From positions 32,001 through 96,000 of the IMG/VR virus record IMGVR_UViG_3300034155_000027: 64,000 bases of DNA; one strand, 5' to 3'. The notes below the pieces were generated by a model. It saw only the letters and a list, made by a program, of their open reading frames with translations, made no database searches and was not told the origin of the DNA. Numbering within the stretch: the stretch's first letter is position 1; each line of letters opens with the position of its first letter. Positions 11,713 to 52,103 of the stretch are shown piece after piece. The stretch comes from a virus (taxonomy: Duplodnaviria > Caudoviricetes). The translations under genes were made by a program, and so were the position numbers.

Positions 11713-12070
11713 TATTTAAAAGAACCTTGCGTTTTTTGCGTTTTTTAGTGTTTGGTTGTGATTTTTCTAAAAGTTCTTCATGAATTAAATTTGTTGTAGT
11801 ATCAAAATCACTAGAGGAATAATCAGGGTTTTCGTTTTTAATCATTTTTTTAGCCATTTCTGGATTAAAAAAAGATCCTATTAAAATAGCTTGGTTTCTT
11901 AATTTTTCTAATTCTATTTCTTGATTATATTCCCATGACTTATACAACCATATCTTTAAATATGGGTTAATATTCTCATAAAAAGGATCATCTGGAAGTT
12001 TACCGAAGGTTTCGACTAAATATCTAATAAATTGACTTTCAGGAAGTTTAACTACTTTTGGTAATGGTAT
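11705..12070 (-). CDS. Tail assembly chaperone GT-type extension (no good start; likely reached by frameshift)
   Basis: Frame open 12070 to 11705 (..KVVKLPESQFIRYLVETFGKLPDDPFYENINPYLKIWLYKSW..), overlapping the end of the upstream chaperone. Confidence 0.6.
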   Translation of the reverse strand: MPLPKVVKLPESQFIRYLVETFGKLPDDPFYENINPYLKIWLYKSWEYNQEIELEKLRNQAILIGSFFNPEMAKKMIKNENPDYSSSDFDTTTNLIHEELLEKSQPNTKKRKKRKVLLNNG

Positions 12071-12695
12071 TCACCACCTCTTTTACTTCTTCAGTATTTG
12101 TTGGAGTATAACCATCTATAGTTTCGGTACTTAAAATTTGATATTGTTGAAACAAATGAGTTATTAAACTATTATCCATTTCTTGAATTAATTCTTTACG
12201 ATATTCAACCTTATCTGAATATTCTTCATTAATACAACCTAATACTAAATCTATAGATTGTCCATCGATCATAAATAAAGAATGTGCTAATACTTCTACT
12301 TTAAGCCTAAATAAACTAGTAGGCGCAAAAGTAACATTACCATCTGCAGTAGTTATTCTTTCTGATGTTTCAATAACTTGGGAAACACAATTTTGTTCAA
12401 GTGTTTTTAATGTTCTTAATGTAAAAATAATTTTACCATTAATATCATCATTAATTTCAACATTTCTGGTTTTCCTTCCAATTCCAGTTAGTATTTCAAT
12501 TCTTTTTTTACCTTCTTGTAATTGTGTATTTTCTTGTTGTTGTAATTTTTCTTGAGCTTGTTGTCTTAAAAGATTTAAATCATCTTGAGTTATTTCTCTA
12601 CCAATTACTTTATTAGATTGGTTACTATCTCCAACCGTCCATTTTTTTCCAGAGTTACCTGTATTACTTTCTCCAATTGAACTATGTATTTTCAT
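12048..12695 (-). CDS. Tail assembly chaperone (gpG-like)
   Basis: Lies between tube and tape measure; FTLRTL motif, acidic helical C-terminus. Confidence 0.6.
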   Translation of the reverse strand: MKIHSSIGESNTGNSGKKWTVGDSNQSNKVIGREITQDDLNLLRQQAQEKLQQQENTQLQEGKKRIEILTGIGRKTRNVEINDDINGKIIFTLRTLKTLEQNCVSQVIETSERITTADGNVTFAPTSLFRLKVEVLAHSLFMIDGQSIDLVLGCINEEYSDKVEYRKELIQEMDNSLITHLFQQYQILSTETIDGYTPTNTEEVKEVVNTITKSS

Positions 12696-12715
12696 AAATT
12701 TTTCCTTAGAAACAG

Positions 12716-12744
12716 ATCAATCCTTCGGATAAGGAAGGATTGAT
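12716..12744 (-). terminator. Stem-loop after tail tube gene
   Basis: atcaatccttc-ggataag-gaaggattgat, perfect 11-bp stem. Confidence 0.6.
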
Positions 12745-12783
12745 TATACTACAACTAATTATATATCAAGGTGAAAAATTAAA

Positions 12784-13428
12784 CTAAGCTGAATCTACAA
12801 CTTTAATTAAACCAGCGGCATCCAAACCACCACGACGTCTACCAATATCTGCTTGTTTTTCAAAATAATCATTATCAATAACTTGTAATTGACGAGCAAG
12901 AGGAGCATTGGCTGCGGAATTTCCTTGTCCAATATATGAATATATATGTTCAGCTTTCCAGCTCATATCTTCAACAAGGACAAAGTTATCTGCTTGGAAT
13001 TTTTTAGCTAATTTACTTATCCAAATATTTTTAATAACTGTTGTAACAACATTATCAGCATTACCAAACCCATCAGCATCATCTTCGTCAGCTGCAAAAA
13101 TATCTAAAATTACAATATCAAATGGAATTCTCTGGGAATGTGCATGAACAAAACCACGAGAAAAGGCCGCTGCAATTCCAAGATTATCAAATCTTACACG
13201 GTTACAATTGCCAGTAATATTCGTTGATTTATCAGGAACAGAATCAATATGACCATCTGTTCCTACCTCATCAATTTCTCGAATACTTCTATCTTCATCA
13301 ATTGATAAACTTTGAATTCCTCCAATTGTGTTTCCATCAACTTGGATGATTATATTGGTACTAACCCCTGTTCTGGTAGTGTTTCTACCAGAATCTGTTA
13401 AAATTGAACCTGTGTGTGGATATACCAT
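12784..13428 (-). CDS. Tail tube protein
   Basis: Follows sheath; IIIQVDGNTIGGIQSLSI..EVGTDG..PFDIVI..VEDMSWKAE. Confidence 0.75.
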   Translation of the reverse strand: MVYPHTGSILTDSGRNTTRTGVSTNIIIQVDGNTIGGIQSLSIDEDRSIREIDEVGTDGHIDSVPDKSTNITGNCNRVRFDNLGIAAAFSRGFVHAHSQRIPFDIVILDIFAADEDDADGFGNADNVVTTVIKNIWISKLAKKFQADNFVLVEDMSWKAEHIYSYIGQGNSAANAPLARQLQVIDNDYFEKQADIGRRRGGLDAAGLIKVVDSA

Positions 13429-13484
13429 TCGAGATCACCTTTAAAATTATACAACTATATTAGTTGTTTTATTGTTTTGTTTAA

Positions 13485-15959
13485 TTAGTCTAACCGCCCA
13501 ACACTTATAACAATGTAAATCCAGTTTACACCATATGTTGGTTGTACTTTAACAGTTATATTCCACTGTCTTGGTTCTACAGCATCTTTTATAATTGTTA
13601 AACCAGCGTAATTTGTGATTAGTTTTTGCTGAATAAAAGATTCCATTGCAGAATGACCAACATTAAACAATGTAGATTTTGTAGTATTTGTTTCAGCTCT
13701 ACCAACATAAGGAGCATAAGTCCTTCGTAAGTTTTTTGAGATTCTATCTCTAATAAACACAATACTAATTTCTTCTTCTGTTGCCTCTAAACTATCTGTA
13801 GTTGTTTTACCCCAAATAACCCTTCCACCTCCAGCAACTGGAGTTAATAATGTAATTCCAGAATTTACAATATTTTCAGTTACTGTAGGACTATATAGTT
13901 TAGATCTTGATAATGTAAACCCAGTTAATATTTTATTGGTAATTGGTTCTTGAATTTGTGTGTTTCCAGAAAAATATCCAGCCATTGCAGCCGCAATAAA
14001 CAAACCGTTTACAGTAAGGCTATTACTTCCAGCTTTTACAACAATATCATCAGGATAATTATAAACCGTTCTATAAGTATCTCCAAATGCATTTTGTACA
14101 CCATAATTAGCTAAATCTTCTGTATTGCCAGATAGAATTTCACTAACATCATCTCCTTGAATACCTTCAAGAACTCCAATATCTTCAACAGCCGCATCTC
14201 TTGTACCAATTACATTTTGTGGTGTTAAACCACTAATTCCACCAGTAAGTAAAACTCTTTCTTTTCTATTTCTAATATTGCTCATGGTCTCAACATGAAC
14301 TTTACCAACTTGAAGAATAGAACTTATTGTTTGTGTTGGTAGTGGTACAACCATATCAACTTCAATTCTTTCTAAAGCCTCATATGCTTCGGTCCAGTTA
14401 GCATCAAAAAAATCTGCATCTTTTGTATCTACTATAGTTGCTCTTAAAGACTCTCCTAGATTTAATGCAAGATCATCTGTAAATATAATTCTTGCACTTG
14501 AAGAAATTGAATCTAATACAAAAAATTCTACACTTGTTTCATTTCCACCAACCCCATCAGCTTTATACAACACTAATTTATTATTTGAAATTCCAGTAAT
14601 TGTATAAATACCATCATTACCAACTGTAGAGTTTTGAATCTCTAATGTTCTAGTAGCTGCTAAATCTTCAAGAGAAAAATCTACAGCGTTACTAGCAAGA
14701 GTTGCTGTATTTGCTCCGGTTGTCACAAAAACACCATCCAAAGCTTCTTTTTGAACTGAGCTATCTAAAATTACAGTATAAGAATAATCATAATCAGTTC
14801 CAGTAATGAAACCATCTGGATTAGCCGTAATAGTAGCGTTGTAAAAGGCAACCTTATTGGGAATGATTTGAGTTTCTTCATGTGTTGTTGGGTTTGTGAT
14901 AAAGAAATTAATATTTGAATCAACATCAGGAATAATATTTAATGGCAACTCAAACGTTACATCTTCAGGATCACTTTGACCATTTGCCGAAGACACTAAT
15001 GAATAAGAAACTCTACGTGGAATTGCTGGTTTTGTTTGAATAGCATATACGCCAGGGGTTCCGTTTGCCCATGCTAATTGAGCTCCTAAAGATAAAGTAT
15101 TAGTAGCTGATGGTTGTCCGTGTTTTGCAGCTACTGCATTTAAATCATCAAACCATTGTGGATCATTTAAATCAATTTGAGAAATATATCTAGCAGATAA
15201 ACTATCACCTTCAACTAAAGAACCACCACTAACCTGAATAACAAAATTATCTCCTTCTTGGAAATAAGTTAAACCTTCAGAAATTGAGAATCTAAGAACA
15301 GTATTATCAACAACCGAACCATTAGACTGCCAAGAAACCTGATTACCATAACCATCTAAAAGAATTCCGCTTTCTGAACCACGAGCAATAAATCTAGCAT
15401 ACCCATCAATAGGGTTTCCATTTCCATCTCTACGAACACTTGAACAACGAATAGTCCAAGTTTCTGGTGGAGCATTAACATCGATTAAAGAAAGATTACT
15501 AATTAAACCATTACCAACGTTAGAACCTGCTGGTAAATAAAATTCTCCACCTTGATCTACTAATGATGCAGCTTGTAATTCTATTTGTCCGGTAACAGAA
15601 TCTAATCTAGCATCATATTTAGAATCAAAAGCATTAGAATCAATTGTATCTTCTAATACACTTAATTCAACACCATTTTTAAATAATCTAGAACGATTTT
15701 CAATTACTGGAGCCACAACAGTACGGCCACCTCCTAAAAGAAAGTGTCTACCATCAGCACCTGTAGTAGATGTATAAGATGAGTTTAAACCATCATTACC
15801 ATTCCCCTGGGCAGATCCAATTAGGATTTCTTCTTTAAGACCTTCTCCCATAAGCACAGCAATACGATTACCTGCTGGAACAGCAACGCCACTCTGAATT
15901 GTTTGAGCTTCAGAATATGCACCCGGAACTACATTCATTGCACCTGAAATATTGGCCAT
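13485..15959 (-). CDS. Contractile tail sheath protein with insertion domains
   Basis: N-terminal PGAYS; C-terminal AAAMAG..EPITNK..WGKTT..EISIVFIRDRI..VQPTYGVNWIYI. Confidence 0.9.
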   Translation of the reverse strand: MANISGAMNVVPGAYSEAQTIQSGVAVPAGNRIAVLMGEGLKEEILIGSAQGNGNDGLNSSYTSTTGADGRHFLLGGGRTVVAPVIENRSRLFKNGVELSVLEDTIDSNAFDSKYDARLDSVTGQIELQAASLVDQGGEFYLPAGSNVGNGLISNLSLIDVNAPPETWTIRCSSVRRDGNGNPIDGYARFIARGSESGILLDGYGNQVSWQSNGSVVDNTVLRFSISEGLTYFQEGDNFVIQVSGGSLVEGDSLSARYISQIDLNDPQWFDDLNAVAAKHGQPSATNTLSLGAQLAWANGTPGVYAIQTKPAIPRRVSYSLVSSANGQSDPEDVTFELPLNIIPDVDSNINFFITNPTTHEETQIIPNKVAFYNATITANPDGFITGTDYDYSYTVILDSSVQKEALDGVFVTTGANTATLASNAVDFSLEDLAATRTLEIQNSTVGNDGIYTITGISNNKLVLYKADGVGGNETSVEFFVLDSISSSARIIFTDDLALNLGESLRATIVDTKDADFFDANWTEAYEALERIEVDMVVPLPTQTISSILQVGKVHVETMSNIRNRKERVLLTGGISGLTPQNVIGTRDAAVEDIGVLEGIQGDDVSEILSGNTEDLANYGVQNAFGDTYRTVYNYPDDIVVKAGSNSLTVNGLFIAAAMAGYFSGNTQIQEPITNKILTGFTLSRSKLYSPTVTENIVNSGITLLTPVAGGGRVIWGKTTTDSLEATEEEISIVFIRDRISKNLRRTYAPYVGRAETNTTKSTLFNVGHSAMESFIQQKLITNYAGLTIIKDAVEPRQWNITVKVQPTYGVNWIYIVISVGRLD

Positions 15960-16072: not shown

Positions 16073-16879
16073 TTAAATATTTTCTATTTGATCTAATATA
16101 GAAATTGTTTGGTTTATCATTAAATTTGGATCTGTAATATCCATTGACCCAATAACCCCAAAATCTACACAAATATTAATTCTTTCAATTACCCCATCTA
16201 TAGGAATTAATCGTCTCCATTCTGTTCTAATATCTACAGATACAGTAGCTTTATATAATTTATCTTGTTGACGATCTTCGCTTTCTGATATTCCACCCAT
16301 ACTTGGTTGACCAGACTTTACTAAAATTCCTGCTTTCCTTAAACTTTCAAACCTAATATCAGCAAATAAAAGCATTATTATACTAACCAAATTATCACGA
16401 TCAAAAATATCTCTAGAAATTATATCGATAGATATTGTACCTTCCCACGCACCTGCTAAATCAATATATTTTGGTATAAAATATTCTTTTTCGTTTCCAT
16501 ATCCATCAATTACTAATTGCTTTTCATATTCTACAACTTCTTTATTTCTATTAAACCCAATTGGTACAGATTTAGCAGATGTCATTTTTACTAATACTGC
16601 AGGATAATATATTGCATCAAATCTAAAAGCCTCACCAATAAATATACGTGTTGTTGAATCATCATTATACCCAGCACCTAAAGGAAGATCTGTATGATCT
16701 GGAACCTTTGGATATCCCCATTCATCACATGTATATTTATAATATGAATCTTTACTAAATTCTTCTCTTAACATCCCAATGATTAATTCTTTAGGATAGG
16801 ACATCAGAGTGTTTTGTACCACATTATAAATTTGATACAAATCTGTTCTGACAATATTTCCTGTTGCAGGAGTAGTCAT
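16073..16879 (-). CDS. Tail terminator / neck completion protein
   Basis: Immediately upstream of sheath; YPAVLV..GTISIDIISR..RDNL pattern. Confidence 0.55.
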   Translation of the reverse strand: MTTPATGNIVRTDLYQIYNVVQNTLMSYPKELIIGMLREEFSKDSYYKYTCDEWGYPKVPDHTDLPLGAGYNDDSTTRIFIGEAFRFDAIYYPAVLVKMTSAKSVPIGFNRNKEVVEYEKQLVIDGYGNEKEYFIPKYIDLAGAWEGTISIDIISRDIFDRDNLVSIIMLLFADIRFESLRKAGILVKSGQPSMGGISESEDRQQDKLYKATVSVDIRTEWRRLIPIDGVIERINICVDFGVIGSMDITDPNLMINQTISILDQIENI

Positions 16880-16896: not shown

Positions 16897-19800
16897 TTAG
16901 TATAAATATTTTAAAGTTGGTTTTAACATAGTTAATGAACCCGCTCCAGTTGGACCAATATAACAACCTGGTTTCAAAATATCTTCAGTTGTTCCTTGTT
17001 TTATCCTAATTGTTGCAGTATTATTTAATGGTTCATTTGGTCTTTCACCAGTATATAAAGCTCCGTTTCTATAGGTTAATCTAAAGTTACCATCAGTAGA
17101 AATATTATATCCTAATACTTTTCTATTATTAATTTCTAAAACCAGTTCAGGATATGCATTATTGGCTATTTGTCCTTCTAGTGTAGAACCTGTAACTACC
17201 CAATCTCCTACAACGGTTACAGTTATATCAAAAGACAATAAACTAGTGTGTTTTGGAATTAAAGAATAAACAGGAATAACAATTCCAACCGTACCATCAT
17301 TGGTTGCTCCAGAACCATCCCATGTCCAAATTATAGAGTCTGTATTTTCAATTCTGGCCAAACCTGTATTTGGTGTTCTGCAATATAATGAAATTCTTTC
17401 ATTGCCCACTGCTGAAATATTAGGATCAGAAGCGGGTGTAGGTGTTTCGTTAAACAATAATGATGATACTGGGAAAACTGTCGCCGAACATTCTGAAACT
17501 TGATTTATATTATGTGCAAAAGAAGAGTTTAAAGGATTCCAAATGCTACTTCTAATAACATTTAAATTAGTAAAATAACTACTTCCATAAGCATATCCAT
17601 CATATCCGTCATAACCATCATAAAGTTCATTTGACAATATAAAATGACTCATATTATTGCCATATACAGACGCATCAGTATTAGCAAAAATAAAATAAGA
17701 TATATTAGTTTCATCACGTTTGTGTAATGTATTACCAATAATTGTACTTGGCTGATCAGGATGGAATCCAAAGTTAAATATTCCATATCCATTTGTACTA
17801 ATATTATTTATTATATTTCCAGATATTGTTACACCACCCTCAGTATAAATATTGTATAAATATCCATTTACTAAACCGTCAATAATATTATCAGAACATA
17901 TTACGTTTGAAACATCAAACGAATTACTCACTGTTGTAATAGCTCTTTTATTGTTTATATCATCATATAATGGAATAAATTTATCAATTAAAATATCACT
18001 TCTTCTAGTAATAATATTTTTAGAAATAATTGTTTTTAATTGATCTACACCAGCTGTCGTTTCTGCTTTTAGATAAGAACAAGTATTTCCTTGAATTATA
18101 TGTTCTGTAGAATATCCATGTGTATCTGTAATGCTTAATCCATAAGTAAGATTTTCAGTATGCATTGTAGCTGTAATACCATCTAAAATTACTTCAGATA
18201 TATTGTTTTCAATTAATAATTTTCCACCATCAGTAAGATAACAAATATAACCAAATTTATTATTTGTAATTTTAATATTATCTATATTTACTTTATTAAC
18301 AGATAACCATTCTCCAGCCGTACCGTTTTCTTGAACCGAAGAAGCACTAATTAATAATCCTTGATTATTAATTGCAATATTTTCTGAAATTATTATGTTA
18401 GAAAATGTTGGAGATGTTAATGATGTGGGGTCTGTATTTGCAAAAGCAATTGCTAAACAATATGTACTGGTGCCTTCATCTATAAATGTGTTACCAAAGA
18501 ATTTTCCATTTTTAAATGTTGCATTTGGACTGTAAATTCCAATAAATGGAGGCCGTTGTATTCCAGAATAATAAAATGTAGTATTTTCTATTCCGAAATT
18601 TTCCATGCTTATAACAGAAGAAATTGCTATTGCTGCCCTTGATAATTCAACATTAAAAATATTTGAAATATGAGTATACCAAGGATCTTCTAGTGTATAA
18701 AACACTTTAGCATTTTTAATTTTCCAATTACCAGAAGCAAATATCAAACCTTCAACAATTTGAACATCATAAGTACCACCAATTAAATTTACTTCTTTGG
18801 TAAAAGACAAAGTGGTAGGTGAATCAATTTTAACATATTGTACTTGTACTTCATTAACACCATATTCATTTACCCAGTTCATTAATGAATCTGGTGTTTT
18901 AAATGAAGAATTATACCCATCTTCACTTTCAGCCATAGAAAAACTAAACGTGCTAATATCTTGATTATATACAAACCTACGAGCATCAGTTACTTCTAAT
19001 AAATTATATGTTATAGTTCCAAGTGAGTTTGCAACTTGAGCTTTAACTCTTGCAATAATTGTTAAATCTTTTCGTTTATCAACAATTTCTGCAAATGTTA
19101 ATGTTTCTACAAAATATTCATAATCAGCAGTAAAGAATTGTGATCCGTTATCTTTAATTATTGCTTTTAATTGTCCAGTCTCAGTAACACAAATAAAGAA
19201 CTCTAACACTGATGTTAAAGTTGTATATATTTCAGGAAGTTTAACATCAAAAGAATCCATAGCAACAAACGAACCATTTACTAATGCCATACCACCAGTA
19301 AATTCTAATACAGATTGTGTAATTCCAGTTTGTTCATACTCAAAACCACGCACAATTCCGTTTGTGTGTAAATACCTTTCTCCAGACTCAATAAATTGTA
19401 TTGCAGAATCAGTGAAATTTTCTTCTGATAAAGTACCAAACTCTCTTAAATCTGTAATTGATTGATATGTCATACTATCATGACTTACACCAGCTACAGT
19501 TAAATATTCATTATGATTTCGTAAACTTGGGAAAATTTCAATATCTACATATCTTGAAATACTATCTATTGGCAATAATATTGAACCAGGAGAATTTGCA
19601 TTTTCTCTAAATTCAATATCAATAAAGTTTACATATGTATTATCATAAAACCTAACAGGAAAATCTTTTCTTCCTCTAGTTAAAGGACCATTATTAATGG
19701 TTCCATTTCCAACAGGATCTCCAAGATATCCATCAAATTCTCCTGTAATTTGATTATAATCAGTTACAACAAATCTTGTAAAATATCTAAAATCATTTCC

Positions 19801-22140
19801 AGTACTTGCTCGTTCACCAACAAATTTAGAAGATACTTGTCTAATTCTCCAGCTATCTCCCATGGTGTCTAAATTAAAACCGCTTAATGATTGTTTAATC
19901 ATTCTGGCTCTTTCAACCGAGAAAGATTCTCCAATTTCATTAACAAATATTTCATGATATCTGTGGTAATCATTCATTGACCCAGCAAGATTTGTCATAT
20001 TAAACGGTACAGAATCATCTGAAAAATATACTTTTACTTCAGTTCCAATTCCAGATATTGCACCAACAGGATCTCCTAATCCGTGAACTCCATTTATTAC
20101 TGAAATAATTGTTTTACAGCTTCCACCACAAGGTGTTTCATAAGCTACACCACTAATAATAAATCTTCCGTAATCAGGAATAGTATTATTTAAATTATCA
20201 GTTGGTTGAACCACTATTGTTTTCCCAACCATTAATTCTTCAGCTGTTAAATCTAATAAAATAGTATATTCAACAGATGTAGTATTATAAACCACGTCAG
20301 TAACAACATTTGTTATAGTAGCATTCCAATATCCATCACCCTGTGTTAGATTTGGTTTAGCTAATAAATCTCTTCTACTACCATTAATTATAGAATTTCT
20401 ATCCCTAATAGGTGGAATTACTAATGTAGGATAATTTCCAGCAGCCATCGCTGTATCATAAGAACCTACAGGTGATGCAAATCCAGCTCTTGTTCCACCA
20501 AGTCCTAAAGCATCATATCCATCAGTAGAATCAGCAATTACATTATATTCATAAGACCCGGCAGTAAGAACCGCACCAGATCTTTGACCACTAATAATTG
20601 TAAACGCTGCACCATTATAATGATCTGCAAGCATTAATCCAAATTCACCATTTTGAGCAAATGCAATAAATCGATAATTATATCCAGCTCTTCTAAATTG
20701 TTTATTTGTTTCTTCTACTATTCTATCAAGATTATATTTACCAGGAGTTGACCCAAAGTTTCCAGTAATATCAATTGGTGGTAAATCATAATAAGAATGC
20801 TCAGGATCTCCATTAACATATAATCTTAACCATAAATTATAATGGTTTAAATCTATTTTGTTTGGATCAAATCCTAAACCTACTACTGCAGCACCTCTTG
20901 GATTTCCAAGAATTACACTTTGTGTAAAATACATTCCATCCGGAATTATATCTGGTAAAACACCAGCAGCAGCATATACACCCCATGTTTGATGATCAAA
21001 TCTAGCCCTATCAATTCTAGCATATCCATCACCAATTTGACTAACTAAATTATATGTATCAATTCTAACTGTCCAATCAGCCCCTGGAATAAATCTAATA
21101 GATTTAATTGGAAATATAGATTCAAGCCCATTTCCATAATTAATTCTAACAATATCTCCAATTTTAACATGAGCAAATTTAGCATCAAAAGAAAAATCAG
21201 AATTATCTTCTGGTAAGAATTTAATTATATCATCACCTATAGTTATATTATCCCTAGGTGCTAATTGACTAGGTTCAGCTAAATAAGCTTCAATTCTAGT
21301 TGGCGGAATTAAATTTATATTATATCCATCTAGATTTAAATCTTGTGCTCTAGCTGTTCTTGGAATTCCATTAGAATTTAAAATAGCACGATCAATTCCT
21401 GTAGAAATTGTTTCTCTAGTATCTATACAATCTAAGGCTTCTTGTACATTTTCTAAATCAGATGGTAAAGATAAGAAATTAGTAGCGTCTACAGTAATTG
21501 CAGTAGCTGGATGTGCATATGTAATTAAGTTTTGATGATCTACTAATTCATTATTTATTGCCAATAATGCATCTGCTAACTGAGTAGCAGAACGAATATT
21601 TCCATCTTTATCAAGTAAACCAGTCCAAGTATAAGTATCTCTAATGTCTGTTGGAATATTGTTTAAATCTATTTGACTTACAACATGTCTGGCAAGAGTT
21701 GTATTATCAGTTAATGTTTCACCACCAGATATATGTATCAATAAATCAGATTTTGTTTCAATTGCTAAATCTGTAATTATTTCTACTTGTCCATCTAAAT
21801 CTGTAAGTGATGTATTTAAATCTGCTGTTGAATAATCCAGGTCAAGTTTAAATTCTTTAATTCCAGCATTATTAGCAATTTGAGCATCATAAATTGGTAA
21901 AGTAACCAATCCAACAGAAGATAAGGCTTCAGAATTTATTGTACCATCTGCATTGATAGATACAGCAATTCTAGATCCTAAACTTGTTTTAGAACCTTGT
22001 GGATTTAATCCTATAGTTTTTTCAATTGCAAATACAGCTTCTCTGAGCTGATTAATTGACATGGTTCCGAATTCAGATAAATTATCATCAATTCTAACTA
22101 TAGTTTTATCATTGTCAACTTGGCCTGGATATACAGTCAT
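16897..22140 (-). CDS. Large virion fibre/appendage protein with C-terminal beta-helix
   Basis: HxAxxI..VQEAL fibre motif, many I-x-x-N rungs near the C-terminus, 8 DGY motifs. Start taken at MTVYP. Confidence 0.6.
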   Translation of the reverse strand: MTVYPGQVDNDKTIVRIDDNLSEFGTMSINQLREAVFAIEKTIGLNPQGSKTSLGSRIAVSINADGTINSEALSSVGLVTLPIYDAQIANNAGIKEFKLDLDYSTADLNTSLTDLDGQVEIITDLAIETKSDLLIHISGGETLTDNTTLARHVVSQIDLNNIPTDIRDTYTWTGLLDKDGNIRSATQLADALLAINNELVDHQNLITYAHPATAITVDATNFLSLPSDLENVQEALDCIDTRETISTGIDRAILNSNGIPRTARAQDLNLDGYNINLIPPTRIEAYLAEPSQLAPRDNITIGDDIIKFLPEDNSDFSFDAKFAHVKIGDIVRINYGNGLESIFPIKSIRFIPGADWTVRIDTYNLVSQIGDGYARIDRARFDHQTWGVYAAAGVLPDIIPDGMYFTQSVILGNPRGAAVVGLGFDPNKIDLNHYNLWLRLYVNGDPEHSYYDLPPIDITGNFGSTPGKYNLDRIVEETNKQFRRAGYNYRFIAFAQNGEFGLMLADHYNGAAFTIISGQRSGAVLTAGSYEYNVIADSTDGYDALGLGGTRAGFASPVGSYDTAMAAGNYPTLVIPPIRDRNSIINGSRRDLLAKPNLTQGDGYWNATITNVVTDVVYNTTSVEYTILLDLTAEELMVGKTIVVQPTDNLNNTIPDYGRFIISGVAYETPCGGSCKTIISVINGVHGLGDPVGAISGIGTEVKVYFSDDSVPFNMTNLAGSMNDYHRYHEIFVNEIGESFSVERARMIKQSLSGFNLDTMGDSWRIRQVSSKFVGERASTGNDFRYFTRFVVTDYNQITGEFDGYLGDPVGNGTINNGPLTRGRKDFPVRFYDNTYVNFIDIEFRENANSPGSILLPIDSISRYVDIEIFPSLRNHNEYLTVAGVSHDSMTYQSITDLREFGTLSEENFTDSAIQFIESGERYLHTNGIVRGFEYEQTGITQSVLEFTGGMALVNGSFVAMDSFDVKLPEIYTTLTSVLEFFICVTETGQLKAIIKDNGSQFFTADYEYFVETLTFAEIVDKRKDLTIIARVKAQVANSLGTITYNLLEVTDARRFVYNQDISTFSFSMAESEDGYNSSFKTPDSLMNWVNEYGVNEVQVQYVKIDSPTTLSFTKEVNLIGGTYDVQIVEGLIFASGNWKIKNAKVFYTLEDPWYTHISNIFNVELSRAAIAISSVISMENFGIENTTFYYSGIQRPPFIGIYSPNATFKNGKFFGNTFIDEGTSTYCLAIAFANTDPTSLTSPTFSNIIISENIAINNQGLLISASSVQENGTAGEWLSVNKVNIDNIKITNNKFGYICYLTDGGKLLIENNISEVILDGITATMHTENLTYGLSITDTHGYSTEHIIQGNTCSYLKAETTAGVDQLKTIISKNIITRRSDILIDKFIPLYDDINNKRAITTVSNSFDVSNVICSDNIIDGLVNGYLYNIYTEGGVTISGNIINNISTNGYGIFNFGFHPDQPSTIIGNTLHKRDETNISYFIFANTDASVYGNNMSHFILSNELYDGYDGYDGYAYGSSYFTNLNVIRSSIWNPLNSSFAHNINQVSECSATVFPVSSLLFNETPTPASDPNISAVGNERISLYCRTPNTGLARIENTDSIIWTWDGSGATNDGTVGIVIPVYSLIPKHTSLLSFDITVTVVGDWVVTGSTLEGQIANNAYPELVLEINNRKVLGYNISTDGNFRLTYRNGALYTGERPNEPLNNTATIRIKQGTTEDILKPGCYIGPTGAGSLTMLKPTLKYLY

Positions 22141-22175
22141 TATTATTCCCAATATAAAAGGATTATTACTACTTA

Positions 22176-22610: not shown

Positions 22611-22694
22611 AAATTTAAAGCAAAGAAACCTATTTTTTAGGAAAGGAATTGCTCTTTCTCCTTTATTGAAGCCTTTTTAAATTGTCAATTTTCG

Positions 22695-25600: not shown

Positions 25601-25784
25601 CTAATACTGTTTGTACTTCTGTTCCGGTAAATGGAGCAGATAAAAGTGGAGACATATCAATATGATTTGCTACATGTCTCCAATCACCACCAGTAACGTG
25701 AGCAATAAAATCTTGTTTATGAGTGGCTGAATACCCACCTTCTCTAATACGTCCTGATCCTATATATCTAGTTCTTGTGACCAT
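22695..25784 (-). CDS. Tailspike-like protein with tandem pectin-lyase-type beta-helices
   Basis: Two TIGDG..(K/P)G(D/E)Y entries (GGIIVVKSGDY; IVINPGEY); N-terminal RHxAxHIDM..VQxxLE repeats. Confidence 0.65.
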   Translation of the reverse strand: MVTRTRYIGSGRIREGGYSATHKQDFIAHVTGGDWRHVANHIDMSPLLSAPFTGTEVQTVLEQITTHFLGHVDGTMHRHTARHIDMDLPLVLYPAPDVQQTLELMAFGMGQGFVTIGDGYRAEDSSPQRDLYEAFLWAFNHPRLKDKGGIIVVKSGDYILQHTVIIPKGFTIWGEAGGTRIDTRICPAFNFSRAEDRELIGDGVTETNFSTKMSRMWNLTVFDNFGGTTPSPISPIILLQPGSEVLLENVTLVGKYTGTAVTPYAVATATWTGDTPNTAHTMLQMKQCFIDAVGIGVSFLYSLRPDYAELKIENCKVRTYSIEANQGFIKATLGKLFINNNYHIAVSPNSLYPGNFLNLSTTVETEGAFVSLIGNKGGPNIISSSEAQYAAARERWIYDTRTTKWAYRLIDSGNQWGVVNSTPWQITIGDGVSSTGDFTGTSALEIVNTLIDRTTNYSNSRTEQVIVINPGEYTVNTQLNIPKLLGNTTAREIASGRSIRILLNSNIPINSSGVYENYVGIATNVEFQSTNNPQRISSKITGVQEYTTFKNVIFINCTVYVEHDNKSIIEDCYFHQDGTFPNLVSLVVQNDETSIINCCEFTGYGYALMQSAFEGEIQLTNCLFDPYKNTIGTGSRILNYQSLYNNGYKYINIGNLTSKVLVDNIVVNCGVDGYTAIDSSLYSNVFRYVEIKSDDLLIVKNSKISGPDQLYRLTNPIAACTLIAEGSLSIINNTFIGALPLHITETLGNSSNSLGTMFQVIGNDIHHYLNSPIPVATAFVIDLPPAGGIRIDQATGSEYNSEDGYEGYAPFSTLNIANNRIIGYYNKVARPARTTWITSLTKIGLFQLNAPGWSVKFDNNDLIYITDDSGLPVNIGIQAAVQIDNSSADFTYANLHIHNNTITHSTTGSAIVGESVDFVTENMAVLDIKTSVANISGNNILTNWLYKGALSRSFLVLEPLKYGTLITGNGFHSNTVPSVLTPINIIGLHGPGAIFGNWFDISSLGNIINGDITDWTVSAENYGLFDITP

Positions 25785-25851
25785 ACCCAAATACAAGAAT
25801 AGTATTGGTATTATGATTGATTTATGTTTTTACCAAAGAATTTAATTTATT

Positions 25852-29370: not shown

Positions 29371-29849
29371 TACCAAGACCTCCTAGTATTTGAATCTAAT
29401 GCAATAATTCTACAGTCTTCAATTGTAAAATCTATATGACCACCTGTAGTAACTGTCCCAAGAGGATTTCCGTTTTCTCTTGTTCCTGATGCTCTTAATA
29501 ACTCTAAGCCTTCTGCTTTGGAAGCGTGTGGGAAAACAACAGGGCAATCACGAGAAATACCCCACAAATACCACTGGTAATCTGTAGCAGTCATAAATTC
29601 TTTAGCAGCCATCATTTCTTCTGGTTCATCAATTCCTAAATCCCACAATCCACCGTTTTGACGTAAGCCTTGATTAGCTAATTTAAGCCCAGCAGTTTTA
29701 ATCATTAAACGAAGAGGTTCTATTAGTTTTTTTAATTCTTCTGGCATATCAGAAGCATTTTCTGTTCCACGCCTCATTCTACCAAGAGTATATCTTAAAT
29801 CTGAACGAACAATTTTTTTAAGATCAATGGTTTCATTACTAGTTTGCAT
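29370..29849 (-). CDS. Hypothetical protein
   Basis: 159-aa ORF whose stop abuts the next start. Confidence 0.6.
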   Translation of the reverse strand: MQTSNETIDLKKIVRSDLRYTLGRMRRGTENASDMPEELKKLIEPLRLMIKTAGLKLANQGLRQNGGLWDLGIDEPEEMMAAKEFMTATDYQWYLWGISRDCPVVFPHASKAEGLELLRASGTRENGNPLGTVTTGGHIDFTIEDCRIIALDSNTRRSW

Positions 29850-37756: not shown

Positions 37757-37818
37757 TTAAAATATCCTTTATATATGCAAGAAAATGGATATATCAACAT
37801 ATATTTGGGAGCGCAAAA

Positions 37819-42952: not shown

Positions 42953-43048
42953 TTTTTCCTTTCCCCTCACACGCACTATAACAAATTATGAGTGTTATTA
43001 TCTGTTTAACATTGTTTTTGCACGATAACACTCACCATGTTAACAATA

Positions 43049-46076: not shown

Positions 46077-46081
46077 ATATT

Positions 46082-47610: not shown

Positions 47611-49192
47611 TAATATGAGGAATTATTGATCGATTTTTTTACTAATAAAAATACCATAACCCAGAGCTGGAATATACCAATCAACAATATCTCCAGAAGT
47701 ACCTAAAATCCTAAACCCTGTAGATGTCCTAAGAGAAAGTGGTGCTGATGCTATAGATCCTAAGCCATTATTAGTGTACGTTGATAAAAACAAACGCTGA
47801 AAAGCAGGTTTCCATATAGTTGAAAGAAAAACATCAACAAATCCTTCAGTACCAATTACAACTACTCCTGATTGTCCACCATCTCTCCATTCTTTAATGG
47901 AATTCCACGCAATCATTGGATCGCCATCTAATGATATATTAAAATCTGTATAAACCAAAAGTATCACATCTAATGTTGTTTGTAAGTTAAAAATTAACCC
48001 ATCACTATATTGAATATGTGAATTACCCCCTCTTCTTACTCTTAAACCAGCGGTATTTCTTTTACCAGAAATACCATTACTTAATAACAAACTAGATCCA
48101 TTAGAAAGCGAAATCGCTTCATTATCGGCTTCTTCAAAAAATTGGCAATTATTTATAATTACAGCATCTGCATTTGAATTTATTGTTAATCGTGTACGTA
48201 TAAAAGTACATGATAACATATAACCACTTCTTATTTTAAACCCAATATTTACAAATTCTGGGTATGTTGTAATTCCTGGATAAATACCACAATTTGCAGC
48301 ATAACCATTAAAATCATTAGGATATTCCAAAAATGTAAACAATACTCCAATCCAATAAGTCAGAATATTAATAATAGTTGTTATTTTTCCAGATATTCTA
48401 CAACCATTAATGTAATATGAATTATGATTTATAAAAATTTGTTTGGTTATATGAAGATCGTTTAAACTAACCAAAATATTAGAGTTAGATTCTTTAGCAG
48501 TATTTTTAATTGAAACAGATTCTATTTGTGGAAGAAATTCAATAACTAAAGAATCTCCAGGATCCCAAGATTTTCCACCACTATTCGGTGGCAATGTTGG
48601 TTTAGTTATTTGACAAACAGATGTTCCCAAATCATCTGGATTAGCTATTAAAATCCATGAAATTGACGAATCAGATAATCTACGTAATCTATATCCAACA
48701 AATTCAGAAAAATCTATATCTGGTACAGATAATAAACATCCCGTTGCTGTTGAATGAGAATATACAGTATATGTTCCAACAATTAACGAATCAACAATTG
48801 TAGGCTGACCATAAGTATAAAATTGTGCAGTTCCATATTGATTTAATTGAATATATAGCTTTTTATATATACCTTGAGCAACATGAACCGTAATTGTATG
48901 ATTAATTGGAATTGAAACAGCTAAACGAATTGATAATTCTTCTAATGAAGCAAGTGGAGTATTTTCAGAAATTCCATCATTATTATCATCTCCTATATAA
49001 CCATCAATATACCAATCTGTAAAACTCCAATTTGTTTCATAATATATACGAGAAATTGATGATAGTTCTTGAGTAGAGATTCCACCAACAATATCTCCAT
49101 CTCTACGCAATATATAGCCATCGCCTATGTCTGTGGTTAATTTAAAGAAATTATCACTAACTCTTGTCATAATAATATGAGGAATTATTGAT
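47610..49192. repeat. 21-bp direct repeats flanking the 515-aa gene
   Basis: ataatatgaggaattattgat at 47610-47630 and 49172-49192. Confidence 0.9.
47623..49170 (-). CDS. Tailspike/fibre-like beta-helix protein
   Basis: WYIDGYIGDDNNDG..PLASL..TVHVAQGIY tailspike entry motif; C-terminal TSTGFRI..DWY. Confidence 0.65.
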   Translation of the reverse strand: MTRVSDNFFKLTTDIGDGYILRRDGDIVGGISTQELSSISRIYYETNWSFTDWYIDGYIGDDNNDGISENTPLASLEELSIRLAVSIPINHTITVHVAQGIYKKLYIQLNQYGTAQFYTYGQPTIVDSLIVGTYTVYSHSTATGCLLSVPDIDFSEFVGYRLRRLSDSSISWILIANPDDLGTSVCQITKPTLPPNSGGKSWDPGDSLVIEFLPQIESVSIKNTAKESNSNILVSLNDLHITKQIFINHNSYYINGCRISGKITTIINILTYWIGVLFTFLEYPNDFNGYAANCGIYPGITTYPEFVNIGFKIRSGYMLSCTFIRTRLTINSNADAVIINNCQFFEEADNEAISLSNGSSLLLSNGISGKRNTAGLRVRRGGNSHIQYSDGLIFNLQTTLDVILLVYTDFNISLDGDPMIAWNSIKEWRDGGQSGVVVIGTEGFVDVFLSTIWKPAFQRLFLSTYTNNGLGSIASAPLSLRTSTGFRILGTSGDIVDWYIPALGYGIFISKKIDQ

Positions 49193-50188: not shown

Positions 50189-50253
50189 AGTAATTTGGTT
50201 TCTATAACTGTTTGCAAAAACAACCATATCACATATGGAAAAAACTGTCAATA

Positions 50254-50286
50254 AAAAAAGGAACCAAGCTTTCTTGGTTCCTTTTT
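50254..50286 (-). terminator. Rho-independent terminator after major capsid gene
   Basis: aaaaaggaaccaag-cttt-cttggttccttttt, with a U-tract on either strand. Confidence 0.8.
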
Positions 50287-50324
50287 ACTATTTAGCTAAA
50301 ATATCTGTTTTTAGCTTTTTTATA

Positions 50325-51335
50325 TTATCCTACGAGAGTACTCTTTCGAGAAGCAGCAACACCACGTGGGTTAACAATACCAATACCAATTTCTTCGCTT
50401 ACAACCCAGCCTAATTTTAGTTGCTTAGGCTCGTCGGCCGGAATAACCTCAATATCACATTTAATTGGCATAACGCCAACGAACTCAGGATCTGCAGCAC
50501 CGTAAACTGTTCCCGGAGGAACAATCTTAGAAACCATGATATCCGCGCCCCAAATGTGACCGTATAAACCAGTTTGAAGAATTTCTCTTTGTGTAACCGG
50601 ATCAATCTCACCACCACCGGGTCCTTGTCCACCACCAGAAGCCCAGTTTAGAATATCGTTGAATTCATTGATATTCATTAAGAATTTAGTTGTAACTAGG
50701 TCCCAACGATCAATTTGAACCTTAATTTCACTAAGGTCTCGTTTAAGTAAACCACCATCAGAAATATCTTGGATAGTATTTTCAACGCTAGATGCTGCGT
50801 CGATAGCTGCAAACACGTTAGCATCTTCCTGAGCCATTAGTTCTTGACGAGCTTTCTGAACAGCACGGTCAATAACATTGAATCTTCGACGACGAACTTC
50901 TGAAATCCTTACAGTCGGATTGGAGTACAATTCGAAAGTAGGAATAACAACTCTATCACCGAATACACGACTTTCTCCACCGGTTCCATTACTGGAAATA
51001 ACGGTAGCAGCAACATCAATATCACGCTCATACTTAGGATCAACACCTTGTGCTAAGGCATCAATTACAAGTAGACGTCTACAAATTCCCTGATAATCCA
51101 AGTTACGACGAATTGGGTTGGCCATAGCCTGGGCTAAGGCTAATTTCCCTTCTTGGGTCATAATAGCGCGCGCGATAAGTTCGTCGCGTTTGTCATCATT
51201 TAAGGACGGTTGACCAGCAAGAGCACTATTTGAAGGCTGTCCTTCTTCAAGAATAGCGGCATATTTAACTAAAGTATTAAGCGCATCTTTTACAGATGTG
51301 GCGTTCATTTCGCCTGTTGAACTGAAAAAACTCAT
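50325..51335 (-). CDS. Major capsid protein (HK97 fold)
   Basis: LAQAMANPIRRNLDY..FELYSNP..EDANVF..GHIWGADI..EEIGIGIVNPRGV; AAGGAG RBS before MSFFS; strongly biased codon use. Confidence 0.85.
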   Translation of the reverse strand: MSFFSSTGEMNATSVKDALNTLVKYAAILEEGQPSNSALAGQPSLNDDKRDELIARAIMTQEGKLALAQAMANPIRRNLDYQGICRRLLVIDALAQGVDPKYERDIDVAATVISSNGTGGESRVFGDRVVIPTFELYSNPTVRISEVRRRRFNVIDRAVQKARQELMAQEDANVFAAIDAASSVENTIQDISDGGLLKRDLSEIKVQIDRWDLVTTKFLMNINEFNDILNWASGGGQGPGGGEIDPVTQREILQTGLYGHIWGADIMVSKIVPPGTVYGAADPEFVGVMPIKCDIEVIPADEPKQLKLGWVVSEEIGIGIVNPRGVAASRKSTLVG

Positions 51336-51380
51336 TCGTATCTCCTTTTTAGTATCAAAACCACCGAAATACATCAGCGT

Positions 51381-51420
51381 TTTTGGAGGAAGGAAAGAAC
51401 ATTTAATTCTTTCCTTCCAA
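51381..51420 (-). terminator. Stem-loop between decoration and capsid genes
   Basis: ggaaggaaagaa-catttaa-ttctttccttcc. Confidence 0.55.
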
Positions 51421-51440
51421 TTACTAATTCACATCACGAT

Positions 51441-52103
51441 TTACTGAGACGGCGGATTGAAATGAATCAAAGCGCGTTGCATTGCATTCGCTTGGGTTGG
51501 TGATACCAAACCAATCGGAGTTGTAACTAAACTTCCACCTTTGTAAGGTTCGAAATTAAGGAAGTAACCAACCTTAATACCAGACTCGAAAGCCTTAGTT
51601 GAAGCAGGAGTTAATAAACCAGCTGTAGTAGCATAAAGCGCGGCACCAATAGCTAAAGTAGCATTTGTGGGCACTAAACCATTAATAACATTTGTATCAA
51701 CTGCATCAAGAGTAACAGCATAGGTTCCGGGTTTATCCCAAAGAGTTAATTTACCGGAAGCAGCAGCAGTGTGAGGTCCAAGTAACTGACCGTTATACTG
51801 CCCAATACCATCAACAATTTGTCCACATAATCCACCAATAACTGAACCAAATAAAGTTCCGTAGCCACGAATACCATCATCTATAAGGAATAAAGGACGA
51901 GATCCACCACCAAGAGTTGTAGTAACAACTGGACGAGTAGTTCCAACATATCCATCATCTACATCAGCCGCACCGGAATCACCCGTAATAGCTACACCAA
52001 CAATTGTTCCAACTTCTCCACCTTTTACAGTGAGATAAATATCATCATGTCCGTCAAATTGACCAAGCGGTTGTGTGCCTGGTTGTACAAGTTCTAAAGC
52101 CAT
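51441..52103 (-). CDS. Head decoration/cement protein
   Basis: Upstream of MCP; ASGKLTLW..GAALYATTAGLLT pattern. Confidence 0.65.
   Translation of the reverse strand: MALELVQPGTQPLGQFDGHDDIYLTVKGGEVGTIVGVAITGDSGAADVDDGYVGTTRPVVTTTLGGGSRPLFLIDDGIRGYGTLFGSVIGGLCGQIVDGIGQYNGQLLGPHTAAASGKLTLWDKPGTYAVTLDAVDTNVINGLVPTNATLAIGAALYATTAGLLTPASTKAFESGIKVGYFLNFEPYKGGSLVTTPIGLVSPTQANAMQRALIHFNPPSQ

What the first reader, a model, noticed from the sequence alone, without database searches (positions are those of the whole stretch)
12048..52103. D-G-Y tripeptide marks predicted surface virion proteins: possible modification sequon or docking motif
Seen: 24 DGY by hand count. 16897-22140 has 8 (including DGYDGY), 22695 has 3, 39176 has 3 (DGYRSDGY), sheath 2, 25852 2, 47623 2, and terminator, 28015, decoration 51441 and chaperone 12048 one each. 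About 4 would be expected in the whole window. None were seen in the MCP, tape measure, hub, spike, the 12 kb of head-region genes beyond 52.2 kb, the enzymes, or the two GC-rich imported fibre genes. The flanking residues differ, so this is not a repeat domain. Inference: a convergently selected linear motif such as a Tyr O-glycosylation or phosphorylation site, an isoAsp/cross-link site, or a dock for a decorating protein. A GT-A glycosyltransferase and a Tyr phosphatase are encoded in the same region.
Basis: partly seen in the sequence, partly recalled or inferred. Interest (0 to 1): 0.78.

Follow-up and report, generated by a model that had tools for sequence, protein, structure and literature searches.

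The report
DGY tag on huge-phage outer proteins
The outward-facing tail, baseplate, sheath and decoration proteins of this uncultured huge phage and its relatives carry the exact tripeptide Asp-Gly-Tyr 7 to 20 times more often than chance; it behaves like an undescribed surface tag that something reads, most plausibly the phage's own sugar-adding enzymes, but no modification has been shown.

Summary
The window has 25 in-frame DGY against 3.3-3.4 expected, and DGY is by far the most enriched of all 8000 tripeptides. The signal is in the protein, not the DNA: Gly codons vary and a 53% GC relative uses GAC/TAC. It is not a repeat domain and not a Ca-loop (6 of 274 sites). It is clade-wide: 5 large relatives, 118 orthologues of one baseplate protein and 50 further loci show it, always in the same outer virion proteins and never in tape measure, tube, hub or the conserved capsid protein. 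Sites are both conserved (Tyr 0.91 vs 0.55 for other Tyr) and gained independently. New here: a fully syntenic relative (G011) has almost no DGY, so the folds do not need it. A distant lineage has no DGY and no nearby GT4. Imported GC-rich fibre genes lack it. The glycan-cluster enzymes next door are slightly depleted. A GT4 glycosyltransferase follows the tail genes in all 58 loci found through it, so this is not a discriminating test. Sulfotransferase and CotH are absent and Pkinase is not universal; a Tyr-phosphatase-family gene is core. Best reading: a Tyr O-glycosylation sequon, unproven. This scan has already found the same tag in at least 25 related genomes.

The parts
16897..22152 (-). 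1751-aa virion protein upstream of the sheath gene; 9 DGY (aa 275, 375, 544, 606, 807, 1078, 1512, 1515, 1518; the last three form DGYDGYDGY)
   Evidence: 9 observed, 0.47 expected. Orthologues in relatives carry 11, 3, 4 and 6 DGY; G003 has 1 and G011 has 2.
13485..15959 (-). Contractile tail sheath; 2 DGY (aa 185, 202) inside a poorly modelled insertion at aa 131-245
   Evidence: Foldseek matches phi812, T4 and phiCD508 sheaths at prob 1.0. AF2 gives pLDDT <50 for aa 131-245. DGY columns differ between subclades.
22695..25796 (-). 1033-aa virion protein; 3 DGY (aa 122, 676, 807)
   Evidence: 3 observed, 0.20 expected. No Pfam or PHROG hit.
25852..27996 (-). 714-aa virion protein; 2 DGY (aa 408, 467)
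   Evidence: Orthologues in G005, G002 and G004 carry 4, 4 and 5; the G003 orthologue has 0.
28015..29376 (-). 453-aa protein; 1 DGY (aa 229)
16073..16879 (-).
   Evidence: Orthologues in G002, G001 and G004 have 1 each; G005, G003 and G011 have 0.
12048..12695 (-).
39176..41452 (-). 758-aa protein with a GDSL/SGNH esterase domain (aa 318-484) and a C-terminal module carrying 3 DGY (aa 591, 672, 677)
   Evidence: The C-terminal ~110 aa is a stand-alone DGY-bearing small protein in G005 and G002.
47623..49170 (-). 515-aa protein; 2 DGY (aa 17, 56)
   Evidence: No Pfam hit.
51441..52103 (-).
   Evidence: Orthologues have 2, 1 and 2 DGY in G002, G001 and G004, and 0 in G003.
50325..51374 (-).
1534..11712 (-). 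Inner tail and hub block: 671-aa, 1683-aa and 313-aa proteins plus the tape measure; 0 DGY here and in all orthologues
   Evidence: Pooled over the five DGY-rich genomes (G000, G001, G002, G004, G005) the whole zero class, which also counts the tube (12784-13428), 50325-51374 and the 1534-aa ORF beginning at 62366, has 0 observed against 3.6 expected. Weak TMP_3 hit.
30395..34584 (-). Two GC-rich (44-53% GC) imported genes with 0 DGY; an internal negative control
   Evidence: The only phage homologue is a 39.6-kb Caudoviricetes sp. from a spring (35% identity). None in clade relatives. A TnpB TNB-domain fragment lies next door at 29934-30329.
476..1495 (-). Y_phosphatase2 (PFA-DSP-like Cys phosphatase) gene lodged in the tail module beside an IS200/IS605 element
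   Evidence: E 1e-13. The family is present in 5 of 5 near-complete relatives and in G001, G002 and G004. Any link to DGY is untested.

Best explanation
DGY is a lineage-specific tag on the outward-facing virion proteins (neck-side proteins, sheath insertion, baseplate periphery, fibre-like proteins, capsid decoration). It is selected as an exact tripeptide and read by a trans-acting factor.

The most likely reader is a phage-encoded cytoplasmic glycosyltransferase. The best candidate is the GT4 enzyme that follows the last tail gene. It would put a first sugar on the Tyr hydroxyl, with Asp at -2 and Gly at -1 forming the recognition turn. The variable neighbouring GTs, fed by phage Gmd and aminotransferase genes, would then extend the glycan, giving the virion a glycan coat.

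Shown: the enrichment, its protein-level nature, its restriction to one class of proteins, its conservation and repeated gain, its loop location in one confident model, and its dispensability for the fold. Inferred: that it is read in trans.
For: Enrichment and specificity:
- The window has 25 DGY against 3.3-3.4 expected, and DGY is the top tripeptide.
- Five genomes at 31-54% GC each have DGY as top tripeptide, 7-10x, p 1e-21 to 1e-54. Pooled, 274 observed against 36.4 expected (totals; one search confirms 274 sites), while every single-residue neighbour (DGF, DGW, NGY, EGY, DAY, DSY) is about 1x.
- Codons differ between genomes, so selection acts on the protein.

Protein class and selection:
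- The same orthologous proteins are always rich (12-22x) and others are always empty.
- 118 orthologues of the baseplate protein average 7.8 DGY against 0.23 expected, with columns kept in 90-116 of 118 sequences.
- DGY Tyr are more conserved than other Tyr (0.91 vs 0.55) although all five lie in coil.
- When Tyr is absent it is replaced by V, I, T, S or E far more often than by F. It is therefore not an aromatic packing site.
- Sheath sites were gained at different columns in different subclades.
- Tandem DGYDGY(DGY) occurs in three unrelated proteins.

Natural controls:
- G011 keeps the whole tail architecture with only 5 DGY against 2.1 expected. It has DEY, DQY, DGT and FGL at ancestral DGY columns.
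- The imported GC-rich genes have none.

Glycosylation machinery:
- A co-oriented cluster starts 45 bp after the last tail gene: Gmd, a DegT aminotransferase and 9 Pfam-recognised GTs, 8 over the curated cut-off.
- The GT4 is syntenic in 58 loci.
- Across 50 unique loci the 10 kb of tail genes has 578 DGY against 39.4 expected. The adjacent 10 kb of glycan genes has 14 against 23.6.
- A distant DGY-free lineage has no GT4 and no GT cluster next to the homologous gene.
- Sulfotransferase and CotH are absent, and Pkinase is not universal, in five near-complete genomes.
Against: - No modification has been observed, and no tool here can show one.
- The GT4-DGY co-occurrence is not discriminating. 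The 58 loci were found through GT4. The DGY-low G003 subclade also has the GT4. GT4 status of the DGY-poor G011 is unknown because its contig ends 300 bp after the tail gene, and that gap is uninformative.
- The GT4 is a generic GT-B enzyme with no demonstrable protein-acceptor signature.
- The GT cluster could serve DNA or host-envelope modification instead.
- Non-structural proteins do not clearly avoid DGY (26 observed against 14.7 expected). Only the glycan-cluster genes show mild depletion (P 0.024, not phylogenetically independent).
- No Tyr-linked sequon of this form is known. I found no literature on it.
- A Tyr-phosphatase-family gene is core to the clade, which keeps a phospho-type chemistry open.
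Confidence: 0.4

Rival explanations
1. DGY is a docking or binding motif, not a modification site. It would be a short exposed turn bound by a non-enzymatic partner: a decoration or cement protein, an assembly chaperone, a host surface glycan, or a metal ion held by the Asp carboxylate and Tyr phenolate.
For: The same facts that require a trans reader apply: strict tripeptide, outer-protein restriction, conservation plus convergent gain, tandem copies, and dispensability for the fold. A dockerin domain in the terminal baseplate protein shows that this virion uses modular docking.
Against: No candidate binder was identified. A three-residue epitope with no flank preference is unusually small for protein-protein docking. 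One partner would have to bind sites on at least 10 unrelated folds. Flank-independence is more typical of enzyme sequons.
Confidence: 0.2
2. DGY marks another covalent chemistry on Tyr or Asp. Options are phosphorylation or nucleotidylation (with the conserved Y_phosphatase2 as eraser or regulator), sulfation, oxidative Tyr cross-linking or DOPA formation, or deliberate Asp-Gly isomerisation.
For: A Y_phosphatase2 gene sits in this window's tail module and is present in 5 of 5 near-complete relatives, while it is rare in control bacteria. Asp-Gly is the dipeptide most prone to succinimide formation (established chemistry). Strict need for Tyr rather than Phe fits chemistry on the hydroxyl.
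Against: No universal writer was found. Sulfotransfer_3 is in 0 of 5 and CotH in 0 of 5. Pkinase is over cut-off in only 2 of 5. In other genomes the phosphatase is not syntenic with virion genes. Its family is best known for inositol pyrophosphate substrates (my knowledge, not tested). IsoAsp formation would not explain the need for Tyr.
Confidence: 0.15
3. DGY is an intrinsic structural element, such as a type-I' Asp-Gly beta-turn with a following Tyr or part of Ca-binding loops. It would simply have become the preferred way to build loops in this lineage, with no reader.
For: DGT (2x) and DGS (1.5x) are also mildly enriched, including in DGY-low G003. Gly at these columns is often kept when D or Y change. 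Two sites in the baseplate protein lie in genuine dockerin Ca-loops. Residue -1 is often beta-branched or aromatic.
Against: Only 6 of 274 sites fit [DN]x[DN]xDG, no more than DG followed by other residues. DGF, NGY and DGW, which would be structurally equivalent, are at chance. G011 builds the same proteins with DEY, DQY or DGT at those columns, and the G003 subclade is DGY-low. Distant homologues have zero DGY. A purely structural preference would not skip the inner tail proteins in six genomes.
Confidence: 0.1
4. The enrichment is an artefact of composition, of a DNA-level motif, or of hidden repeats.
For: None beyond the a priori possibility. One G004 fibre protein does carry DGY inside a ~55-aa repeat.
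Against: Shuffles, Markov expectation and a ranking against all tripeptides exclude composition. In this window 25 of 28 coding-strand (- strand) GAYGGNTAY matches are in frame, with 3 more on the + strand, and codons vary within and between genomes. Flanks are unrelated. Twenty unrelated viral loci (L131, L134-L151 and L130; L130 alone, probably a clade member, has 8 vs 1.6) show none: the other 19 total 13 observed against about 19 expected.
Confidence: 0.01

Closest known systems
Virion glycosylation of mycobacteriophages by phage-encoded glycosyltransferases (Freeman et al. 2023; cited in PMC12619734)
   Same: Phage-encoded GTs next to structural genes are thought to coat virion proteins with glycans made in the cytoplasm.
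   Different: There the glycans sit at the C-termini of capsid and tail-tube subunits (as quoted), and I know of no exact sequon reported for them (my knowledge, not checked). Here the tag is an exact Asp-Gly-Tyr tripeptide in internal loops of outer tail, baseplate, sheath and decoration proteins. The tube and capsid protein are tag-free, and no glycan has been observed.
Sequon-directed bacterial protein glycosylation: PglB D/E-X-N-X-S/T, Bacteroidota D-(S/T)-(A/I/L/V/M/T), cytoplasmic NGT/HMW1C N-X-S/T (my knowledge)
   Same: A 3-5-residue linear motif, often with an acidic residue two positions before the acceptor, marks many unrelated surface proteins. NGT acts in the cytoplasm on a three-residue motif.
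   Different: The presumed acceptor would be Tyr. No oligosaccharyltransferase, flippase or GT41 enzyme was identified. The motif itself has not been described.
GtfA/GtfB (GT4) glycosylation of serine-rich repeat adhesins, followed by stepwise extension by clustered GTs (my knowledge)
   Same: A cytoplasmic GT4 initiator plus a variable set of extender GTs is encoded beside the substrate genes. Acceptor sites are dense and sometimes tandem.
   Different: Those acceptors are Ser/Thr in low-complexity repeats. The phage GT4 shows only generic GT-B/GT4 similarity. No GtfB-like partner was sought.
Tyrosine O-glycosylation of S-layer proteins (Paenibacillus alvei, Thermoanaerobacter; reviewed in PMC2943079, seen)
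   Same: A glycan is linked to the Tyr hydroxyl of a surface-array protein.
   Different: Those glycans are built on a lipid carrier and transferred outside the cytoplasm by a membrane OTase. There are few sites per protein and no DGY sequon (my knowledge).
DxDxDG / EF-hand / dockerin calcium-binding loops
   Same: These contain Asp-Gly followed by a variable residue. Two DGY sites in the terminal baseplate protein lie in a real dockerin.
   Different: Only 6 of 274 DGY sites fit the motif, no more than DG followed by other residues. Canonical loops have no Tyr requirement.

Membership tests
Sequon-directed protein glycosylation system | A short linear acceptor motif over-represented on a defined set of surface proteins and independent of fold | tested here: met
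   7-22x enrichment, exact tripeptide, unrelated flanks, same protein class in six genomes, 118 orthologues and 50 loci.
Sequon-directed protein glycosylation system | A glycosyltransferase or OTase whose presence tracks the motif across lineages | tested here: inconclusive
   GT4 is syntenic in all 58 loci, but these were found through GT4. The DGY-low G003 subclade has it. The DGY-free group Y lacks it locally. G011 status is unknown. The CgeB-like GT lead was refuted, present in 1 of 5.
Sequon-directed protein glycosylation system | A glycan covalently attached to the acceptor residue | not testable with these tools
   Needs mass spectrometry or structure determination of virions or co-expressed proteins.
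Sequon-directed protein glycosylation system | Acceptor sites lie in exposed loops or turns | tested here: inconclusive
   All five DGY Tyr of the baseplate protein model are in coil (pLDDT from <50 to 93). Both sheath sites are in an unmodelled insertion. No coordinates were available for solvent exposure.
DxDxDG / EF-hand-type Ca-binding loop | Asp/Asn at positions -2 and -4 relative to the DG Asp | tested here: not met
   6 of 274 DGY sites against 37 of 1132 DG[^Y] sites.
Repeat domain or shared fold carrying the motif | Detectable similarity of the sequence around the copies | tested here: not met
   All-vs-all BLASTP of +-40-aa contexts gave no hit better than E 0.012, and those are anchored on DGY itself. 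No flank preference against a same-protein background.
DNA-level motif (restriction, methylation or recombination site) | Fixed nucleotide word, independent of frame and strand | tested here: not met
   Four Gly codons are used roughly in proportion to genome usage. In the window 25 of 28 coding-strand (- strand) matches are in frame, and the + strand has 3. GAT/TAT is used at 31% GC and GAC/TAC at 53.5% GC.
Tyrosine phosphorylation system (kinase plus phosphatase) | A protein kinase conserved together with the phosphatase | tested here: not met
   Y_phosphatase2 is in 5 of 5. Pkinase is over cut-off in 2 of 5 and CotH in 0 of 5. BY-kinases were not searched.
Tyrosine sulfation | A sulfotransferase encoded by the phage | tested here: not met
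   Sulfotransfer_3 is in 0 of 5 near-complete genomes. Other sulfotransferase families and host enzymes were not tested.

The most novel reading that the evidence does not exclude
Asp-Gly-Tyr is a new O-glycosylation sequon. A phage GT4 would recognise this three-residue turn on folded virion proteins in the cytoplasm and start a Tyr-linked glycan. Fast-evolving extender GTs would diversify the glycan, giving ~450-kb phages a programmable glycan coat whose density is tuned by gain and loss of DGY sites. G011 would be a lineage that has shed the system.
Probability: 0.35. Interest if true: 0.85.

Novelty: new variant of a known kind. Interest (0 to 1): 0.72.

Why it matters
If DGY is a sequon, it would be the first exact acceptor motif for phage virion glycosylation that I know of. 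It would also be a rare case of sequon-directed Tyr modification.

It would be readable directly from sequence, so the modified surface of uncultured huge phages could be mapped from metagenomes. It would also give a compact three-residue tag with a matching enzyme for protein engineering.

Even if the chemistry differs, a tripeptide selected this strictly points to an unknown reader. It recurs across hundreds of proteins and a wide GC range, and one syntenic lineage appears to have lost it.

The question is directly testable by co-expression and mass spectrometry.

Tried and rejected
- PHROGs gave no hit for any of the ten DGY proteins. Pfam gave only a weak sheath hit and a GDSL domain.
- I first treated G003 as a DGY-negative outgroup. 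The larger sample showed its subclade is DGY-low, not negative, so it cannot serve as a negative control for the GT4.
- A CgeB-like GT (Glyco_trans_1_2) seemed to track DGY in four genomes. It is present in only 1 of 5 near-complete genomes and was rejected.
- The 117-aa gene shared by all DGY-rich contigs is an HNH endonuclease. The ORFs between the tail gene and the GT4 are also mobile HNH genes.
- AF2 of the sheath left the DGY-bearing insertion unmodelled.
- The PDB profile search with the GT4 alignment was dominated by the extra GT domain of G001 and showed only generic GT4 relatives.
- Closer relatives of G011 or group Y were not obtained. The viral-contig scans returned only the contig itself or distant members. 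The single metagenome scan gave two loci.
- The genome-contig scan returned almost only clostridial dockerins, plus one 3-kb fragment binned with a Thioploca MAG.
- Literature searches for a DGY motif found nothing relevant.
- The 'moraphage' paper (PMC12619734) describes a different or only possibly related lineage and does not mention the motif.

Full report
**The count.** With a non-overlapping ORF set of 55 ORFs and 20,080 aa, the window holds 25 in-frame DGY.
- Composition predicts 3.4, a first-order Markov model 5.4, and within-protein shuffling 3.3. None of 5000 shuffles reaches 25.
- DGY is the most enriched of all tripeptides (Poisson p 6e-14; the runner-up is 2e-5).
- Its single-residue neighbours are at chance: DGF 6 observed/3.9 expected, NGY 6/3.7, EGY 2/3.0, DSY 4/3.6.

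**Level of selection.** The signal is in the protein, not the DNA.
- The Gly codon is GGA, GGT, GGG or GGC roughly in proportion to genome usage.
- Of 28 GAYGGNTAY matches on the coding strand, 25 are in frame. Only 3 occur on the other strand.
- A relative at 53.5% GC writes the motif mostly as GAC-GGN-TAC. This 31% GC genome writes GAT-GGN-TAT.

**Not a repeat and not a Ca-loop.**
- All-against-all BLASTP of the +-40-aa contexts of all 43 sites in the 131-kb contig gives nothing beyond alignments anchored on DGY itself.
- Against the composition of the same proteins, the flanks carry no information. The exceptions are echoes of tandem DGY copies and a lack of Pro at +1.
- Only 6 of 274 pooled sites sit in a [DN]x[DN]xDG loop, no more than DG followed by other residues (37 of 1132).

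**Scope.** The window is part of a 131,454-bp virus record with 43 DGY against 6.5 expected.
- The extra sites lie in four large tail and baseplate proteins just upstream of the window.
- Sheath relatives from IMG/VR include contigs of 130-320 kb that CheckV rates 25-49% complete. Later searches reached 432-452-kb records rated 97-100%. This is therefore a ~450-kb huge-phage clade.
- In four further large contigs at 37-54% GC, DGY is again the top tripeptide, 42-86 observed against 5.6-9.5 expected.
- Pooled over the five genomes, DGY is 274 observed against 36.4 expected. Every D-x-Y, x-G-Y and D-G-x neighbour is near 1x, except DGT (2x) and DGS (1.5x), which are also raised in the DGY-low relative.
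- The same orthologous proteins are rich in every genome (12-22x): the terminal 1000-aa and 2223-aa baseplate proteins, the 1751-aa protein, two 714-aa proteins, the sheath and the decoration protein.
- The tape measure, tube, the 671-aa and 1683-aa proteins and the conserved capsid-region protein are empty in all six genomes.
- The 1000-aa protein has 566 database relatives. The 120 closest (118 of them near full length and aligned) average 7.8 DGY against 0.23 expected.
- Fifty unique loci recovered through the neighbouring GT4 gene carry 578 DGY against 39.4 expected in the 10 kb of tail genes.
- Control loci recovered by the same GT4 search but without the tail homologues show no enrichment: 19 of them total 13 observed against about 19 expected; a twentieth, L130, probably belongs to the clade (8 vs 1.6).

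**Selection.** Sites are both conserved and repeatedly created.
- In the 1000-aa family several columns are DGY in 90-116 of 118 sequences.
- The Tyr of DGY is kept in 0.79-0.99 of sequences (mean 0.91) against 0.55 for the other 31 Tyr.
- Where Tyr is absent it is replaced mostly by V, I, T, S or E and seldom by F. This is not what an aromatic packing position would show.
- In the sheath, DGY occupies different columns in different subclades. One example is LLDGYGNQ against DEYGQ/DDYGQ against DSSGSP. Another is GDGYLS against GNGTIS.

**Structure.**
- The sheath model is a bona fide contractile sheath. Its two DGY lie in a 115-residue insertion that AF2 could not model. By analogy with other sheaths this insertion would face outward; that is inference.
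- The 1000-aa protein modelled well (pLDDT 81.8). It resembles phi812 baseplate chains weakly and contains a true dockerin.
- All five of its DGY Tyr are in coil, against 13 of the 31 other Tyr.
- Solvent exposure could not be computed.

- The two GC-rich genes at 30395-34584 have no DGY. Their only phage homologue is in an unrelated 39.6-kb phage, and a TnpB fragment lies next door.
- G011 is a 42-kb IMG/VR contig with the complete syntenic tail module at 30-46% identity to this genome. It has only 5 DGY against 2.1 expected, where this genome's orthologues have 27.
- At columns that are DGY throughout its sister group, G011 has DEY, DQY, DGT or FGL.
- The sheath tree places G011 with subclade A at 100/100 support, on a long branch. 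The folds and the assembly therefore do not need DGY, and even the Gly is replaceable.
- Whether G011 lost the tag or never intensified it depends on the root. The D-x-Y relics and the DGY-rich state of both other subclades favour loss.
- Distant homologues of the 1000-aa protein (P0166, P0171, P0172, P0178; 6775 aa) have no DGY at all. In the two contigs recovered they sit among replication genes. They have a single sugar epimerase and no GT4 nearby.

**Candidate readers.**
- Immediately downstream of the last tail gene and co-oriented lie a GT4, four GT2, GT10-, GT11- and GT1-like genes, a weak sialyltransferase-like hit, Gmd and a DegT aminotransferase.
- The cluster is syntenic but variable in G005, G001 and G003.
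- Only the GT4 is shared by all of them. It follows the tail genes in 58 loci, at gaps of -41 to 4540 bp that are often filled by HNH genes.
- This co-occurrence is by construction, and the DGY-low G003 subclade also has the GT4. I rate the link as suggestive only.
- The glycan-cluster genes themselves are mildly DGY-depleted (14 observed against 23.6 expected, P 0.024). Other non-structural genes are not (26 against 14.7).
- In five near-complete genomes Sulfotransfer_3 and CotH are absent and Pkinase is over cut-off in two. The CgeB-like GT is present in one. Y_phosphatase2, the family of window ORF 476-1495, is present in all five.

**Literature and earlier notes.**
- Full-text searches found no description of a DGY motif in phage or glycosylation contexts.
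- Virion glycosylation is documented for mycobacteriophages (cited in PMC12619734).
- This scan's own notes show the same tag was reported in at least 25 related genomes, with the same tentative reading. I treated these as leads.
- The glycan-cluster lead was verified. The claim that the tag travels with the GT genes could be only partly tested.

**Verdict.** The best-supported inference is a tag read in trans on outer virion proteins, which I put at roughly 0.7-0.75 over all such readings. Tyr O-glycosylation by phage GTs is the leading but unproven mechanism (0.4). Docking, another Tyr/Asp chemistry and a purely structural preference remain as rivals.

Noticed in passing
IMGVR_UViG_3300025867_000038 (handle G011; loci L160-L162, whole 42,338 bp): A fully syntenic tail module of this clade that is almost free of DGY (5 against 2.1 expected), with DEY, DQY and DGT at otherwise conserved DGY columns. 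It sits on a long branch and has deviant composition.
   Followed up: partly
window 476-1495 (-), and G006-G010: A Y_phosphatase2 (PFA-DSP-like) gene is present in 5 of 5 near-complete genomes of the clade, although the family is rare in control bacteria. In this genome it sits inside the tail module next to an IS element; elsewhere it is not syntenic with virion genes.
   Followed up: partly
genome 30760-32416 (window -1240 to 416); L067:15760-17413: An IS200/IS605 element (Y1 transposase plus full-length TnpB/OrfB with TNB domain) is inserted between tail genes. A second, truncated TnpB TNB-domain ORF lies at window 29934-30329 (+) beside the GC-rich genes.
   Followed up: partly
window 30395-34584 (-): Two genes at 44-53% GC sit in a 31% GC genome. 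The 878-aa one has its only phage homologue (35% identity) in a 39.6-kb Caudoviricetes sp. from Manatee Spring (MW202577), and none in clade relatives. This looks like a recent horizontal import of fibre-like genes.
   Followed up: partly
L067:412-3414 (-) = genome 15412-18414: The terminal 1000-aa baseplate protein carries a genuine type-I dockerin domain (Pfam E 3e-10; Foldseek prob 1.0 to cellulosomal dockerins). This implies a cohesin-like partner on the virion or the host.
   Followed up: no
window 37729-38604 (+), 43687-44763 (-), 42722-42976 (-), 34741-35259 (-): Non-structural genes are embedded among virion genes: a papain-family C1 peptidase, a class-V aminotransferase or cysteine-desulfurase-like enzyme, a cold-shock protein and an eCIS-core (DUF4157-like) domain protein.
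   Followed up: no
window 43320-43673, 45456-46088, 49235-50251 (all -): Three homing-endonuclease-type genes (HNH, HNH_4-like, LAGLIDADG with HTH) are scattered through the structural module. HNH genes also fill the gap between the last tail gene and the GT4 in relatives.
   Followed up: no
L164 (JAAUSR010000192.1, 3.1 kb): The only true relative of the baseplate protein in the GTDB species genomes is a 3-kb contig binned with a Thioploca sp. MAG. This is a very weak host or co-occurrence hint.
   Followed up: no
G004 21213-23432 (L048): A 739-aa fibre-like protein has 15 DGY, several placed at the same point of a ~55-aa repeat (…FYMDNYG.V.QIT.DGY…). Here the tag has been multiplied by domain repetition.
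   Followed up: no
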